From NCBI RefSeq assembly GCF_021869535.1, contig NW_026262593.1:13268001-13332000 (forward strand): a stretch of 64,000 bases of DNA, read 5' to 3'. The stretch comes from Mytilus californianus (lineage: Eukaryota). The number at the start of each line of letters is the position of its first letter. Position 1 is the stretch's first letter. The position numbers were made by a program. This document shows positions 18,388 to 24,300 of the stretch, piece by piece.

Positions 18388-21300
18388 CGATTCTAGAAAA
18401 ATCATTTCTAGACTTTAAAATTTAAAAAAAAAAAAGATTTTCTCACAGGGTCAAAAGTTAAAACATCAAAATAGTTCTAGTTTACAAGACATATGTATGT
18501 ACAAAATGCAGTTAACCTTCTCGTCACCATGACATGTCATAATTAAGTTAGCAATACAATGCACCAGTCGACATTCCATGATCAAAATAAGTTTAACAGA
18601 GTCAATCTAGGTGTATGAATTTCTTGGTAAAGGCTTTTTTTGAAAAATAATGTAACAAGTTTCTTTTGTTAGCAAAATACCAAAAATAGACAATATTGAG
18701 TTAAGATGTAATTCACAAACAAATCATTAAATAGTAATAAAGAATAGTTTATTCATATTTAAACTATGACCTGGTTTACATTTTTCACTGAAATATCAGA
18801 AAACTCCCTGTAGAACTTATGAATATATAGCTTTTGTGAATCTGATAAGAATGTGGCACTTGACAAATTATACTGTCTAACAATGAAATTGAACAATTTA
18901 TTTTAAACATTCGTTATTACAATTGGTCATTTAATCAATAATCGAAAGGTTATTCAAAATCCATAAACTTGTATCACGGTAATATACTAATTTCAAATTG
19001 TTTAAAATGGAATTTTCACCTTTTTGGCGCTTTCGCTTGTTAACCATTTTCATCAGCATTTGTCTAGTTAATGTTGGTAAATGTGACTGTGGTGACGGGA
19101 TAAAGGAGTGTCAGTATAGAGAATGGTCCTCATGGGGAAGCTGTAACAAGTCAGTAAATACTACAAAGAGAAGTCGTGCAATTTGCTGTCCACCTGCCAT
19201 TAAGATTTACGATGCATGCCTTACGCATTGTAACATAACAACTAACCCATTACAGGCGTTTGAAGAAAGGAATTGTAATGCCATTTTCAAGACGAGCAAC
19301 AGTAAATGTAGGTAGAATGATAAAATAAAAAAATGAAGCTTTTTGTGTTGTTTGAAGCATACACAGTTTAAGCATATATGCATGAAGTTTTTGACCGAGC
19401 GAAACTGGCAAGTTCAATATATGGAAACAAGTAATTAAGAATTCAACATATATGTTGGTTTTTTTTTCGAAATATTTGTCAATGACCTCATGAAAGGTGC
19501 ATTATAAAGTCATGTGCCGCCCGAATCAAATTAATTATCAACGGGTTCTGAAAGAAGGGTTTTATGGAAATTGTGACTGTAAAGGCGATTTCGAAATTTG
19601 TGCCGTAATGGAAACAGTTTTGATACTTGATAATACAATTGTTGAGCGCCAGATGAATAAAAATAACAAAGAAGCAATTTATAAAATAGAGAAATTGAAA
19701 CCACCTCAATTTTGAAATGAAAATCAGTTGTGTTCCCTGATTTTTTTTCTTGATAACTGAATTTAAACATTTACATAAGTTTAATTGGTAGCATTAGTCT
19801 TAAATAATTCCTTTTTTGACAGTACCGTTATCGAACGGACGTCGTTGATAGATAAAACTTTAAACAATCACTTTGAAATTTTAGTGACAGAATGAATACG
19901 TTTTTGTTCAAGTTTTTCTTTAAGATAGGAATATTAAGTTGTATCTCGCTCGTAATTGGAGACGTAGGAAAATGTCCAAGTGGGACACAATTTTGTCATT
20001 ATAGTCCTTGGCTTCCATGGGAAAGTTGTAATTTGACAAGCTCTGGAGAGTTCAAGCAGACCAGACAGCGAAAACTATGTTGTAAGATTATAAAGGACTG
20101 CTTCAAGACTTGTAATATCAGTAGTAGCACTTATGGATCCATGATCAAGGAAGAAAGGATGTGTATAGATGGAATAGCTGAATCAACAAAATGTAGGTAC
20201 TTTCTCTCTCGGCCCCATCCCCTATGGAATTTACTAACCCTCTATTGGTCCGTAGGAGGGCAGTAGGAAACCATATAACTTATAATATCTGCTCCTGCAA
20301 TTGTACCGCATGCCCACCTTCTTCAAGAGACATACTAGCATATTGGCTGGTAAATGACGTCACAGAGGCGATTTTGAAGATTTTTTCGGTGAAGATACGG
20401 CACTGAACAAACGTGTTATAGATTCAATTTTACTGTGCTAATTTTTTAAAGGAAATAATGATTTCTTATGTCAATTTGTCAATAAACATATACACAATTA
20501 TACTCCGGGTGTGATGCATAGATTGTTTCCTTTTTTACAGCATCCACTGGAATGATAGTTGGAATTTGTTTTGGAGTTCTGATTCTCTTACTAACTGCAC
20601 TCGCTGTGACTTTGGTGCTGCTACACAGGTATAAATAGAAAAATAACGAGATATAAAAAAAAAAAAAATCATTTATTCGTCAAGATTATCTGAGTTGATT
20701 TTTCGATGCTAATGAACCCCATATAAAAGTTAAGTGCTCTGACATCCAGCTTTTTATGTTACTACATGTACCCTATGTATATAAATCATGTTATAAGAAG
20801 AACAATGACTTACGTTTTTCTATTGGTCATTTGTTATTCTAACGATTACGATTACATAGGACATTTGCATACTAAAAGTAAACAACACCTACATGTAAGA
20901 ATCCCTGCACATGTTGATGTGTTTGTCTTAAATAAGGAGCCTTTTCAGTGTTTGACATTAATATTGTATTGTTTCTAAGTTTTTGTCTTACACAAATGTC
21001 GAGGTAGCGAGACGTAACGATCATGGTTTAAGTTTTATTTATACATTAATAACTTTGGAATTTTATGAAATTTGGGCAGAAGTTTGTTAATTACCAAATG
21101 TAGATTTTTTACGTATTTACTGATAAATGGGCTTAATTTTTTGCATTTAACATTTAAAGATGAAAATAATGTTGACATGATAAATTTGTTTATCGTCCTT
21201 CACTACGCCTATATCACCCTGGTCACTCACTTCGTAATTCTCGTATCACGGCTTTGAGACGAGAGCAGGCATTATCAGCGACGTCACAATGTCTTAGGAG

Positions 21301-24300
21301 AAGTTATCACCGACGTCACATTTGTCTTAGGAGAAATTATCAGCGACGTCACAATGTGTGAAGAGACGTTATCAAACTTGCTTTCGTCAAGCGTTAAACG
21401 GACTTAGGGAGGGAGAAAAGACCAGTAATAGAACGATAAACAGATAATCGGGTTTTCTTCGTATAGATATCGTAAAATATCAGCCGCTCGACACAATGTG
21501 AACCTTTTAAGCTCGTTTGCTGCGCTCACTCGTCAAAAAGGTCCACATTGTGGCTCGCAGCTATTTTACGATATATATCAATGTGTAGAAAACCGATAAT
21601 TTATACAAAAGTTCATGGATTGTTATGAATCTTGAACAGAAGCTAATCTTCAAGATGAAGAACAAGCATCTGAAGATAAATGTTTGATTACAATTTTTTT
21701 TAACTTTATAAATAAGACTTACTTTTTACAGTCGATATTACATTTTTTCACTCACAACAGCAATCGCAGGCGAGAAACACGGTTCTGCTTACGAATTTTG
21801 TTTTAACTCGACACAATTTAAAACTTGAAATAAGTTTAAATGTCAATCGACACCAAAATATAAAACACAAATCAGACATTTTAAGGACATCATACGGTCT
21901 CCGGCAATTAAACAGTGTCAACACAATACATTATACATTATGTTAAAATGTCAGATTGTTTTGGGTCATACGATGGTGATAATCAACTTATTATACATCA
22001 ATAATTTTGAAGTTCTACGTTTCGGCCGAAAAAAAAACCATTCATTTGACAATGTTTTTTTCGGGGTAGCAATATGCTCTACCACTCTCTCAGCTATGTG
22101 TTATTTATATATTAATGTTAAAATCGCTCCGAGTTTAAAATGTATATAAAATGATAATTGGTGCATGTAAGTACATCATGAATGATTTTGGCGTGACGGC
22201 TTCAATCATGAGTATGATGAATCGAATTTCGGCATGTACTAATACAATGTTAAATCATTATCTTTAGTATTTAGGTGAAATATGTCTCGTTGCGCGCTGT
22301 TATTCTCCAAGATGATCATCTACTCAGTAGTCAGGGCTTCAATGAACGTATTTTATCAATATAACAATTCCATGGTGCTTCGCTACTGACAAGATTTTGA
22401 ACAAACTTAAATTCTACTTTGATTAGATTAGAAATTGTTATGAAACAAATGTGTCAACTTTGTCCTAAGATGAGTTTGGCTTTTTCCTCCTCATGGTCAT
22501 ACAAGTTAGTCCTTCACGTGTTTAGATCTTATTCATCCTTGGCTTCTTTTTTTTTTGGTTTGGGCGTTCCTGATGAAGGTAAATCTAGAAAAGCGCTTCC
22601 TACGCAATAAATAAATTGTTAATGCATAAAGTTGCTTCTGATTCTAAAGTCGAGACTACTTTATTTCACAGTTTAAAAATGGCGGTGAACATTTTGACGT
22701 AGCAATTGTACTTAGTTTAAAGGAATGCTACACGTTAAATATGTTTAATAATTTTGCTATACCTTACTGTGCCCTTTTATAATAACAATTGCTTAAATAT
22801 TTTACCAAAATTGCAGTTTGAATTTATATCTATAAACTAATATAGCTAAGTATCAATCAAGTATAGTGTAATAATATCAGATTATTACATGGCATTTTTC
22901 ATATCAGATGTATTATCAGCCATATTGACATTACTTTCTCGTCAAATATAAAAATATATTATACTGTTGTTATTCCTCTCTTTTGAGACATATGATAGAA
23001 ATATTTCATATCGGATGTATTACATTTTCTCCATTGTTGAAGCATATGATAAAAAGATCATAACATGTCATTTTTCATATCAGATGTATTATCAGCACTC
23101 GAGCCTTAGGCTCTTCGGCTGATATTGAACCTTGGACTTATAGTATATCTGGTATGAAAAAATGCCATGTAATAATCTGATAATATCAGCCCGCTAAACA
23201 CCATTTCGGAAAATATGGAATTCACGTAAATTTTATGCTATTATTATACAGTAAAAATTATAAGTTATTTACTCAAAGTATATGATAACAAATATTTTCA
23301 TCAATACTTTTATCGTGTTTGACTGTACCTAAGTCTTTGATTTTTCAAGCAAAGTTTGTGCTTTGTCTTCATAATTTCGATTTTGGATTACAAATTTAAC
23401 AGAAAAGGTATCTTTTTATGATTTTTAACTATAAGCGGTTAAGACCAATCTGAATCAAATTCACATCCTGTAACCATACTTTGCGTCCAAGGAGAATCGT
23501 GGACACGGGCTCTATATTTTTCAACCAAATTGTTCTATAACTGACGTTATAAATGCCATCATTACTCCTTTTTTAAATATAGTATGTTAAATGCTAGTTG
23601 CTATATGATAAAAGGCGAAATTGTGAAAATGTTGATTTTTTATTTTTTCTCTTCTTTCTTTCTTAGGTTTAAGAAGATTGCACTGTTCACAAGATTGAGA
23701 GCAATTTGGCATAAAGACGCCGATACAAAAACAGAAACTTAACTCTGAAAGTGATTGCAGATGAACTTAAATATCTACATTGTTAGCAGATGAAGCAATA
23801 AAAGTTGATCAACAAAAAGCAATCATAGTGTTAATTTACAAAAAAAAAAAAACACCAATTAAACAATAATTCATAACAGCTAAACTGTCTTAGAGTCTAT
23901 TCACATTCTACCTGTCCTAATACCAAATCATATTTTTAGTCAGATTGGATTTAATACCCTCCTCACTAAATGCTTATTCTATTGAGACCAAAAGCATAGC
24001 CACAACATTGACAAAAACTTCTTTTTACCACGGTCATAGCTTCAAATGAGGCAACCGAAACATCAGCCGCGACTAGTAGCCGTAATGTGTACTTTACTTC
24101 TAAAGTTATGATTTGCCTATATATTTAGCGTCTGCTTATATATTTCAACGAAAACGTGGCCTTATCAAAGAAAAACTGTCAATTATTCCATTATTTTCGT
24201 CCGTCGTCCGGTGTTACCTATGGTGAACATTTGATTTTATTACCACTTAAAGATCTGTTTTTATTTTTCCGTGATTATAACAAAAAATTTAAATTATCAT

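What the first reader, a model, noticed from the sequence alone, without database searches (positions are those of the whole stretch)
19007..23742. Two paralogous variable first exons feed one constant TM + tail (small cell-surface TSP1-like receptor)
Seen: exons A (19007-19307) and B (19892-20192) are each exactly 301 coding nt. Each has its own ATG and signal-peptide-like start, a diverged TSP1-like domain with a shared Cys/Trp pattern (VGKC..C.Y..W..W.SCN..R.R..CC..C...CNI..EER.C), and the same AAAT|gtaggt phase-1 donor. Only one TM exon and one tail exon follow. No good phase-compatible acceptor joins A to B. Inference: alternative promoters give two 154-aa receptors with different ectodomains and the same anchor. 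This is the variable/constant design known from clustered protocadherins and UGT1, here in a small invertebrate surface protein and possibly immune-related.
Basis: partly seen in the sequence, partly recalled or inferred. Interest (0 to 1): 0.68.

Follow-up and report, generated by a model that had tools for sequence, protein, structure and literature searches.

The report
Two alternative first exons, one anchor
A mussel gene carries two old, diverged copies of its first coding exon (signal peptide plus a thrombospondin-like domain) ahead of a single membrane-anchor exon and tail exon, so it probably makes two small surface proteins with different outer parts, a known gene design seen here in its smallest form.

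Summary
Exons A (19007-19307) and B (19892-20192) are each 301 nt. Each has an ATG, a hydrophobic start, the same AAAT|GTAGGT donor and a shared Cys/Trp scaffold (33% identity, E=4e-11). Only one TM exon (20541-20628) and one tail exon (23667-23742) follow, giving 154 codons either way.

The window is Mytilus-like and closest to M. coruscus. A-type and B-type exons form separate, well-supported clades, each holding the window, M. coruscus and M. galloprovincialis, so the duplication is old and both copies were kept. Two public M. galloprovincialis gene models join A-type and B-type exons to anchors identical at 61 of 63 residues. That fits shared constant exons.

Against this, the M. coruscus model puts A and part of B in one protein. 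It uses a second GT 4 nt downstream and reads the TM exon out of frame, so it is probably a misprediction. It does show that in-frame A-to-B paths exist.

No transcript data could be reached, and no conserved promoter element was found.

The domain is a divergent TSP1 repeat from a large bivalve family of small proteins that start with a signal peptide and a TSP1-like domain; some spliced members also carry an EGF-like module and a TM anchor.

Verdict: partly supported; a two-exon case of the known variable-first-exon design; modest interest.

The parts
19007..19307 (+). Variable first coding exon A: ATG, signal-peptide-like leader, divergent TSP1-like domain, phase-1 donor AAAT|GTAGGT
   Evidence: Relatives at 92/100 (M. 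coruscus model), 84/100 and 75/100 identity. The exon is more conserved than the adjoining intron read-through: 84/100 against 14/27, Fisher p=0.0013.
19892..20192 (+). Variable first coding exon B: paralog of A with its own ATG, leader and the same donor
   Evidence: Relatives at 78-82/100 identity, and distant B-type ORFs at 44/96 to 51/85 that keep a Met and leader.
19308..19891 (+). 584-nt spacer between the A donor and the B ATG. It would be intron for A transcripts and would have to hold B's promoter and 5'UTR if B has its own
   Evidence: No TM-like or TSP1-like coding segment here. TATAWA at 19503 and 19680, and AATAAA at 19324 and 19656, but both motifs are common in this AT-rich window (3.56 and 1.75 per kb). 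Promoter function is inferred, not shown.
19312..19313 (+). Second GT, 4 nt downstream of the A donor (AAATGTAG|GT). This alternative phase-2 donor opens in-frame paths into B
   Evidence: It is used implicitly by the M. coruscus model P0007. A twin lies at 20197-20198 after exon B.
20541..20628 (+). Constant exon 2: short linker plus transmembrane helix (STGMIVGICFGVLILLLTALAVTLVLLH). Acceptor ttttttacag|, donor CACAG|GTATAA
   Evidence: 25/28 identical to the same part of the M. galloprovincialis model P0006. AlphaFold2 models of the two M. galloprovincialis proteins put a long helix here.
23667..23742 (+). Constant exon 3: short basic cytoplasmic tail (R)FKKIALFTRLRAIWHKDADTKTET and TAA stop. 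The acceptor follows a fully pyrimidine tract
   Evidence: 21/24 identical to P0006.
23797..23802 (+). AATAAA, a candidate polyadenylation signal starting 55 nt after the stop
   Evidence: A motif match only.

Best explanation
This is one mussel gene for a small type I membrane protein. Its layout is signal peptide, one divergent N-glycosylated TSP1-like domain, one TM helix and a 24-residue basic tail. The first coding exon exists in two ancient, diverged copies.

Each copy carries its own start codon, leader and an identical phase-1 donor. Neither has a strong in-frame acceptor. A transcript that begins at A therefore splices A to the TM exon and removes B as intron. A transcript that begins in the spacer upstream of B splices B to the same TM exon. 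The result is two 154-residue isoforms with different ectodomains and the same anchor.

Shown: the exon anatomy, reading phases, paralogy, age and retention of both copies, and the existence of both join types as public gene models in a congener.

Inferred: that both are transcribed, that each has its own promoter, that their use is mutually exclusive, and any function.
For: 1. Anatomy and phases are as stated: 465 nt, 154 codons by either route.
2. Only two ectodomain exons and one TM and one tail exon occur in 64 kb.
3. The duplication is old. A and B are 33% identical and their flanks are no longer alignable.
4. In a 29-row tree the A clade (4 rows, 100/99) and the B clade with distant B-types (12 rows, 100/99) each contain the window, M. 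coruscus and M. galloprovincialis. Both copies were therefore kept through speciation.
5. Exon A is more conserved than its adjoining intron: 84/100 against 14/27, p=0.0013.
6. All B-type relatives, down to 44/96 identity, stay open and keep a Met, a leader and the eight scaffold Cys. That would not be expected if B's 5' part were only intron.
7. M. galloprovincialis VDH96845.1 is A-type+TM+tail and VDI60265.1 is B-type+TM+tail. Both use the phase-1 junction (K|SSTGM). After the junction they match at 61/63 residues, before it at about one third. The anchor differs by 3/28 and 3/24 between the window and M. galloprovincialis. Two anchors separated since the ancient A/B split should differ far more, so these are most simply the same constant exons, as alleles or haplotigs.
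8. The residue after K100 in every unspliced read-through relative is Cys (TGY), and the next codon starts with A in all (R, T or K). This fits a conserved T|GTA donor. In P0005 the following codon is Q (CAR), so that genome has no GT at the alternative downstream donor position.
9. The gene's real acceptors are pyrimidine-rich (0.74 and 1.0). The candidates in or before B score 0.53-0.63.
10. Most small relatives are first-exon ORFs that begin with a leader and a TSP1-like domain, so this is the family's usual first exon.
Against: - No RNA evidence of any kind could be consulted.
- The two M. galloprovincialis models lie on different contigs (91,667 and 326,758 nt). They could be two separate genes rather than one locus. 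They are EVidenceModeler consensus predictions (passages of PMC7653742), and their per-model support is unknown to me.
- The M. coruscus model CAC5425763.1 joins A to B.
- With the second GT, 12 of 57 AGs give an open in-frame route from A through B to the TM exon.
- B is not significantly better conserved than its adjoining intron in the small sample available: 82/100 against 17/24, p=0.26.
- No shared upstream element was found. 306 of 2000 unconstrained shuffles and 86 of 500 banded shuffles reach the observed score.
- An AATAAA lies 17 nt after the A donor.
Confidence: 0.58

Rival explanations
1. A and B are included in one mRNA, giving a type I protein with two TSP1-like units in tandem. 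The route would be the second GT at 19312 to an acceptor before or inside B (first exon base 19885 or 20005), or the phase-1 donor to the weak acceptor at 19962. B's phase-1 donor would then join the TM exon.
For: - The public M. coruscus model P0007 (CAC5425763.1, 196 aa) reads A(1-100)-C-S-PWLPW...B. This fits 19311^20005 in the window.
- 12 of 57 AGs are in frame from the second donor.
- The wider family includes multi-repeat proteins, for example P0009 with 4 matched stretches and a C-terminal TM, and P0012 with 2.
- The candidate at 19962 falls exactly at the predicted leader/mature boundary of B.
Against: - P0007 reads the TM exon in the wrong frame and stops inside the next intron, so it has no anchor. 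At least its 3' half is therefore a misprediction. Its likely source annotation was BRAKER (passages of PMC7227121). The link of this accession to that paper is my inference.
- Joining at 20005 would drop the first two scaffold Cys of B (positions 28 and 35) and leave six of eight.
- Joining at 19885 would bury B's leader inside the protein.
- The candidate acceptors are weak: pyrimidine fraction 0.53-0.63, with G at -3 for 19962.
- B's Met and leader are conserved in distant relatives.
- In P0005 the codon after K-C-R is Q (CAR), so its A exon has no GT at the second-donor position.
Confidence: 0.12
2. Only one of the two exons feeds the anchor. The other is either a stand-alone product or an unexpressed relic. 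Unspliced A would end ...SNSKCR*, a 102-residue secreted TSP1-like protein, with AATAAA at 19324.
For: - The A reading frame stops two codons into the intron, and an AATAAA follows at 19324.
- No second TM or tail exon exists for a separate gene A.
- The ectodomains evolve fast: A is 75/100 and B 81/100 identical to M. galloprovincialis, against 25/28 and 21/24 for the anchor.
- In M. coruscus the Cys of GKC in A is replaced by Phe.
Against: - Both exons stay open, with the scaffold intact, in every relative seen.
- Exon A is significantly better conserved than its intron.
- The identical 10-nt donor block is kept in both ancient paralogs.
- Both join types are annotated in M. galloprovincialis.
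- The Cys lost in M. coruscus is A's ninth, extra Cys, not one of the eight family-wide ones.
- AATAAA occurs 1.75 times per kb here.
Confidence: 0.18
3. There is one promoter and a mutually exclusive choice. Transcription starts upstream of A only. B is reached by splicing from a non-coding 5' segment to the acceptor ttttag|TG at 19885, just before B's ATG. The two isoforms would then arise by alternative splicing rather than alternative promoters.
For: - An AG with T at -3 lies 7 nt before B's ATG (first exon base 19885).
- No promoter element shared by A and B was found.
Against: - The acceptor is weak (pyrimidine fraction 0.53).
- No upstream non-coding exon or donor was identified.
- In the known variable-first-exon clusters each variable exon has its own promoter (abstract start of PMC3325998 in the listing, and general knowledge).
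Confidence: 0.1

Closest known systems
Multiple-variable-first-exon clusters (clustered protocadherins alpha/gamma, UGT1A, GCNT2)
   Same: Tandem paralogous first exons, each with its own start codon and donor and without a usable acceptor, sit upstream of one set of constant exons. The variable part is the outward-facing recognition part and the constant part is shared. [quoted passage not shown] I saw only the search listing and the abstract starts.
   Different: - There are only two variable exons, against about 9 to 22 in those clusters (recalled).
- Here the variable exon stops before the TM helix. In protocadherins it includes the TM and part of the tail (recalled).
- No conserved promoter element was detected.
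- No transcripts were seen.
- The protein family is unrelated.
Bivalve family of small proteins that begin with a signal peptide and a TSP1-like domain; spliced members add an EGF-like module and/or a TM anchor and short tail (e.g. XP_063426230.1, uncharacterized protein LOC134710012 of M. trossulus; VDH96845.1 and VDI60265.1 of M. galloprovincialis)
   Same: - The first-exon content and the scaffold C..G...C....W..W..C...R.R..CC...C...CN...E...C are the same.
- The family profile found 132 representatives at E<=1e-3.
- VDH96845.1 and VDI60265.1 are the A-type and B-type counterparts of this locus.
   Different: - Most family members keep the CGGG Cys and add an EGF-like CxC...GxCC module. A and B lack both and have N-glycosylation sequons instead.
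- I could not see whether any other member shares an anchor between two first exons.
Canonical thrombospondin type-1 repeats (thrombospondin-1 TSRs, F-spondin, properdin, UNC5, C6)
   Same: - WxxW followed by SC and an R.R strand motif.
- The family profile matches thrombospondin-1 TSRs at E=7.1e-11 and F-spondin at 2e-5 in the PDB sequence set.
- 28 of 49 family members match Pfam TSP1_spondin and 13 of 49 match TSP_1 at E<=0.01.
- The best Foldseek hits of the model are all TSP1-bearing chains.
   Different: - A and B on their own stay below every Pfam gathering score.
- The CSxTCG motif is lost, and a CC doublet and a C...CN helix-like segment are added.
- No Foldseek hit reaches E<=1e-3; the best is 0.32.
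THSD8 / Pfam DUF5544 (small vertebrate TSP1-domain protein)
   Same: It is a small protein with one TSP1-like domain. Exon A gives a weak DUF5544 hit (E=1.6e-4, 22.2 bits). The nearest Atlas cluster is named 'Thrombospondin type 1 domain containing 8' (score 0.89).
   Different: - The Pfam hit is below the curated cut-off of 25 bits.
- Only 2 of 49 family members hit DUF5544 at E<=0.01.
- The Atlas score is under the 0.9 lead threshold.
- B gives no such hit.
- I did not fetch or align any vertebrate sequence, so this remains a lead only.
- The 4 papers that mention THSD8 only name it in passing, once each (listing).

Membership tests
TSP1 (thrombospondin type-1 repeat) superfamily | Trp ladder WxxW followed by SC, and an R.R strand that stacks on it | tested here: met
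   A has W40SSW43GSC and R55-S-R57. B has W40LPW43ESC and R-Q-R. These positions are invariant in 6 of 6 sequences, and W40, W43 and C46 are invariant in 45 of 45.
TSP1 (thrombospondin type-1 repeat) superfamily | Significant match to curated TSP1 models or to solved TSRs | tested here: inconclusive
   A and B alone fall below the gathering scores. B scores TSP1_spondin 17.2 bits against a cut-off of 41, and TSP_1 10.6 against 21.6. A gives no TSP1 hit. At family level the test is met: profile against PDB thrombospondin-1, E=7.1e-11; 28 of 49 members match TSP1_spondin and 13 of 49 match TSP_1 at E<=0.01.
TSP1 (thrombospondin type-1 repeat) superfamily | Three-stranded elongated TSR fold | tested here: inconclusive
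   AlphaFold2 models of the A-type and B-type M. galloprovincialis proteins have mean pLDDT 78.5 and 79.9, with ectodomain blocks at 83-93. A Foldseek search of the A-type model against the PDB gave 0 of 123 matches at E<=1e-3. The top-ranked hits are all TSP1-bearing: C6, C8, C9, F-spondin TSR, TSP-1, MIC2 and CCN3. The B-type model was not searched.
TSP1 (thrombospondin type-1 repeat) superfamily | Canonical six-Cys pattern with CSxTCGxG | tested here: not met
   A and B lack the CG(G)G cysteine that most relatives keep. They have 8 scaffold Cys, including a CC doublet, and A has a ninth. This makes them a divergent variant.
Variable-first-exon / constant-exon gene design (Pcdh, UGT1A type) | Two or more tandem paralogous first exons, each with its own ATG and donor and no strong in-frame acceptor | tested here: met
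   with n=2. Caveat: weak in-frame acceptors exist if the second GT is used.
Variable-first-exon / constant-exon gene design (Pcdh, UGT1A type) | One shared set of downstream constant exons | tested here: met
   There is a single TM exon and a single tail exon in the 64-kb window. The A-type and B-type M. galloprovincialis models share an anchor that is 61/63 identical.
Variable-first-exon / constant-exon gene design (Pcdh, UGT1A type) | Each variable exon has its own promoter | not testable with these tools
   No TSS data are available. As a proxy I looked for a shared upstream element and found none that is significant: 306 of 2000 shuffles, and 86 of 500 in the banded test, reach the observed score. 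TATA-like motifs are too common here to count (3.56 per kb).
Variable-first-exon / constant-exon gene design (Pcdh, UGT1A type) | Transcripts that join each variable exon, one at a time, to the constant exons | not testable with these tools
Support is indirect only: two public consensus gene models in M. galloprovincialis and one contrary model in M. coruscus.
THSD8 / DUF5544 | Match to Pfam DUF5544 at or above its gathering score | tested here: not met
   A scores 22.2 bits against a cut-off of 25. B gives no hit. 2 of 49 family members hit at E<=0.01.

The most novel reading that the evidence does not exclude
A two-exon variable/constant receptor locus has been conserved in mussels since before the M. 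coruscus and M. galloprovincialis lineages split. Two ancient signal-peptide+TSP1 exons, each with its own promoter, compete for one anchor. The ectodomains evolve faster than the anchor. This would be an early stage of the protocadherin/UGT1-type route to surface-receptor diversity, outside vertebrates and in an otherwise unstudied bivalve TSP1 family, possibly serving recognition.
Probability: 0.3. Interest if true: 0.5.

Novelty: new member of a known kind. Interest (0 to 1): 0.34.

Why it matters
If both isoforms are made, the locus shows how duplicating only a first exon gives a small surface protein two outer faces on one anchor. It also shows that such an arrangement can last through speciation in a lophotrochozoan.

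It is a compact, testable case of the variable-first-exon design: four exons in under 5 kb. It also points to a large, uncharacterised bivalve family of small proteins with a divergent TSP1-like domain.

In practice it flags an annotation problem. The three public models of this locus type disagree, and the M. coruscus one reads the anchor exon out of frame.

With only two variable exons and no expression or function data, the finding is a modest addition rather than a surprise.

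Tried and rejected
- DNA similarity of the flanks of A and B, sought as a sign of a duplicated promoter or intron. blastn and MAFFT show nothing beyond the coding part. Upstream 250 nt: local score 16, reached by 306 of 2000 dinucleotide shuffles and by 179 of 1967 random window pairs. With a +-30-nt band it is reached by 86 of 500 shuffles and 40 of 485 pairs. 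Downstream 250 nt: 19 of 300. The collinear TTTAAACATT...AATTGGT block that I noticed is therefore not evidence.
- A third variable exon or a second anchor in the window: none.
- Search with residues 101-164 (the constant part) of the public protein P0006: it returned only P0006 itself, out of 10 candidates. That search scores only cluster representatives. The B-type model P0140 sits inside P0003's cluster and surfaced only.
- Pfam on A, B and the full-length relatives: nothing above gathering. The weak Amnionless, EBA-175, Bac_export_2 and similar hits were dismissed as chance.
- The UniRef name of P0007, 'Folate receptor-like domain-containing protein', is not supported: 0 Pfam families at E<=1.
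- Foldseek against the PDB: no significant hit.
- Rfam on 17000-25000: 0 matches.
- Repeats in 18000-24500: nothing that links A and B.
- Literature (all search listings only): THSD8 appears in 4 papers, each naming it once. 'Mytilus' with 'alternative first exon' gave 2 irrelevant papers. 'Variable first exons', 'constant exons' and 'mollusc' gave 16 papers with at least 2 of the 3 terms; 10 were listed, and none of those 10 holds both 'variable first exons' and 'mollusc'. A search on TSP1, bivalve and family expansion gave 3 unrelated papers.
- dN/dS could not be computed, because only protein sequences of the relatives were available.
- My own slips: the first translations of the TM and tail exons were in the wrong frame or off by one base. 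They were corrected.
- Not used: complex prediction (no binding claim is made) and genome contigs (prokaryotes only).
- Closed and so unchecked: metagenome contigs, viral contigs and paper supplements.

Full report
**What is in the sequence**

The window is AT-rich animal DNA (about 32% G+C) and contains no N.

- On the + strand, 19007-19307 (exon A) and 19892-20192 (exon B) are each 301 nt.
- Each begins with ATG with A at -3 and ends AAAT|GTAGGT.
- Their 100-codon translations start with a hydrophobic leader and align at 31/93 identities, E=4e-11.
- Downstream there is one exon at 20541-20628. Read in phase 1 it encodes STGMIVGICFGVLILLLTALAVTLVLLH.
- There is also one exon at 23667-23742, encoding (R)FKKIALFTRLRAIWHKDADTKTET and a stop.
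- Either route gives 465 nt, which is 154 codons.
- AATAAA starts 55 nt after the stop.
- tblastn with the four exon translations and an HMM of the ectodomain exon run against all 2034 six-frame ORFs of the window find no third variable exon and no second anchor.
- No hydrophobic 19-mer lies between A and the TM exon.
- With 6.4% stop codons, a 100-codon open frame has a chance of about 0.0013.

**How the searches were done**

Exons A and B were searched separately. The TM and tail exons were only compared locally. I left out the joined step: the joined 154-residue models of the window were not built for, or sent to, any search, fold or look-up. Where a full-length protein was needed, I used public proteins returned by the searches.

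**Relatives and organism**

- Exon B finds two unnamed unspliced ORFs at 82% and 78% identity.
- Exon A finds an unnamed ORF at 84% identity and a 164-residue 'Hypothetical predicted protein [Mytilus galloprovincialis]' at 74%.
- A profile of these six sequences, run against 1.84 billion representatives, gives 132 hits at E<=1e-3, 10 at E<=1e-10 and 4 at E<=1e-30.
- The best hit is a 196-residue M. coruscus protein, CAC5425763.1. It is 92/100 identical to exon A and 59/63 identical to the part of B that it contains.
- The window is therefore from Mytilus and closest to M. coruscus. This rests on protein identity alone.

**The three public models of this locus type**

1. VDH96845.1 (M. galloprovincialis, 164 aa) is an A-type exon joined at K|SSTGM to the TM helix and tail.
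2. VDI60265.1 (M. galloprovincialis, 163 aa) surfaced only as a non-representative member of a 90% cluster. It is a B-type exon joined at the same point to the same anchor.
   - The two proteins are about one third identical before the junction and 61/63 identical after it.
   - Between the window and M. galloprovincialis the anchor differs at 3/28 and 3/24 residues.
   - Anchors that had been separate since the ancient A/B split should be far more different. The simplest reading is that both models use the same constant exons, seen on two contigs (91,667 and 326,758 nt) as alleles or haplotigs.
   - These models are EVidenceModeler consensus predictions built from PASA transcripts, protein alignments and ab initio predictors (passages found in PMC7653742). 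Their individual support level is in supplements that I could not open.
3. CAC5425763.1 (M. coruscus) reads A(1-100)-C-S-PWLPW..., then the rest of B, then C-S-IHWNDSW....
   - In window coordinates this corresponds to a second GT 4 nt downstream of each donor (AAATGTAG|GT) and an acceptor inside B (first exon base 20005). The TM exon is then read out of frame into a stop in the next intron.
   - It has no TM segment and no Pfam hit.
   - I take it for a misprediction, at least in its 3' half. A genome paper for this species used BRAKER (passages of PMC7227121). That this accession comes from that annotation is my inference.

**Can A be spliced to B?**

- From the phase-1 donor, 3 of 58 AGs give an open, phase-compatible path. 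Only one of them (19962) lies before most of B, and it has G at -3.
- From the second GT, 12 of 57 do, including 19885 (7 nt before B's ATG) and 20005.
- These candidates have pyrimidine fractions of 0.53-0.63. The gene's real acceptors score 0.74 and 1.0.
- Joining at 20005 would remove two of B's eight scaffold cysteines. Joining at 19885 would bury B's leader inside the protein.
- In every unspliced relative, the read-through residue after the last Lys is Cys (TGY) and the next codon begins with A. This fits a conserved T|GTA donor.
- In the A-type ORF P0005 the codon after K-C-R is Gln (CAR), so that genome has no GT at the second-donor position.

Inclusion of both exons is therefore possible on paper but disfavoured.

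**Age and constraint**

- The flanks of A and B are no longer alignable, so the duplication is old.
- In a 29-row maximum-likelihood tree of first-exon parts, the four A-type rows form one group (100/99). The twelve B-type rows, including four distant ones, form another (100/99). Each group holds the window, M. coruscus and M. galloprovincialis. That A and B are each other's closest relatives is only weakly supported (51/87).
- Exon A is better conserved than the adjoining intron read in the same frame: 84/100 against 14/27, Fisher p=0.0013.
- For B the difference is not significant: 82/100 against 17/24, p=0.26.
- B-type ORFs as distant as 44/96 identity keep an open frame, a Met, a hydrophobic leader and the cysteines. 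This argues that B's 5' part is coding and is a true first exon.
- The ectodomains differ more between the window and M. galloprovincialis (A 75/100, B 81/100) than the anchor does (25/28 and 21/24).
- dN/dS could not be computed without orthologous DNA.

**What the domain is**

- Alone, A and B stay below all Pfam cut-offs. A scores DUF5544 at 22.2 bits against a cut-off of 25. B scores TSP1_spondin at 17.2 against 41.
- An alignment of 45 small relatives shows the scaffold C..G...C....W..W..C...CGGG...R.R..CC...C...CN...E...C, often followed by an EGF-like CxC...GxCC.
- Its profile matches thrombospondin-1 TSRs at E=7.1e-11, then F-spondin (2e-5). UNC5D, properdin and C6 follow only at E 0.003-0.015.
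- 28 of 49 members match TSP1_spondin and 13 of 49 match TSP_1 at E<=0.01.
- AlphaFold2 models of the two M. galloprovincialis proteins are confident in the ectodomain and show an N-terminal helix (the leader) and a long C-terminal helix (the TM and tail). Mean pLDDT is 78.5 and 79.9.
- Foldseek gives no significant PDB match (best E 0.32), although the top-ranked hits are TSP1-bearing chains.
- A and B have lost the CGGG cysteine and carry N-glycosylation sequons (A: N47, N51, N76; B: N47, N75) and a WxxW motif.
- I therefore call it a divergent TSP1-like domain. It belongs to a large bivalve family of small proteins that begin with a signal peptide and a TSP1-like domain. Spliced members with an EGF-like module and a TM anchor include XP_063426230.1 of M. 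trossulus.
- The THSD8/DUF5544 resemblance is only a lead. I fetched no vertebrate sequence.

**Most likely mechanism**

The gene has two alternative first coding exons that share one anchor. This gives two 154-residue type I membrane proteins (confidence about 0.58).

- Shown: the anatomy, phases, paralogy, retention of both copies, and both join types as public models.
- Inferred: transcription of both exons, separate promoters, mutually exclusive use, and function.
- No promoter evidence exists. TATA-like and AATAAA motifs are too frequent here to count, and no upstream element shared by A and B is significant.
- Rivals: both exons in one mRNA (0.12); only one exon feeding the anchor, with the other a stand-alone secreted product or a relic (0.18); one promoter with B spliced at 19885 (0.10).

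**Comparison and novelty**

The logic matches multiple-variable-first-exon clusters such as UGT1A and the clustered protocadherins (abstract starts in the listing). Here there are only two variable exons, the TM helix is constant rather than variable, and the protein family is unrelated.

Among the 10 listed of the 16 papers, none holds both 'variable first exons' and 'mollusc'. Searches also found nothing on this family. These were search listings only.

I rate it a new member of a known kind, with modest interest. The suggestion of an immune role has no support in anything I ran.

**What stayed unchecked**

- Any transcript or TSS data.
- The mussel genome contigs that carry the public models.
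- Supplements of PMC7653742.
- The closed collections metagenome contigs and viral contigs.
- Genome contigs was not used, because it holds prokaryotes only.

Noticed in passing
window 34589-38131 (-): A long ORF of 1043 aa with reverse transcriptase (RVT_1, E=2.3e-31) and endonuclease-RT domains. The adjoining 137-aa ORF has a weak Exo_endo_phos match. Together they look like a LINE-type retrotransposon copy.
   Followed up: partly
window 57192-58478 (+): A 429-aa open frame with B-box zinc finger (E=1.7e-9) and NHL repeat (E=3.5e-8) matches. It is probably an exon of a TRIM-NHL-like gene.
   Followed up: partly
window 28737-30632 (+): A 632-aa stop-to-stop open frame, Ser/Lys/Asp-rich, about 5 kb downstream of the tail exon. 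It has no Pfam match, and its nearest Atlas clusters score only 0.79 or less. Its nature is unexplained. Nothing links it to the TSP1 gene, which has its own stop codon and AATAAA.
   Followed up: partly
window 22871-23186 and 21264-21578 (inside the TM-tail intron): A 29-nt inverted repeat, 97% complementary, with arms 258 nt apart, encloses a 42-nt direct repeat (93%). This looks like a MITE. Further upstream there are two 46-nt direct repeats 65 nt apart and a 22-nt inverted repeat.
   Followed up: no
window about 18335-18385 (+): A (GA)n-type microsatellite about 650 nt upstream of exon A. It shows up as the run RERERERE... in the ORF list.
   Followed up: no
Public protein CAC5425763.1 (P0007), M. 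coruscus: This model fuses exon A and part of exon B and reads the anchor exon out of frame. Its UniRef name, 'Folate receptor-like domain-containing protein', is not backed by any Pfam hit at E<=1. It looks like an annotation error worth correcting.
   Followed up: partly
exon A, codon 26 (window 19082-19084): A-type exons carry a ninth ectodomain Cys (the GKC just before the family-wide Cys). In the M. coruscus model it is replaced by Phe. B-type exons have eight. An odd Cys count could mean a free thiol or intermolecular bonding, but this was not examined.
   Followed up: no
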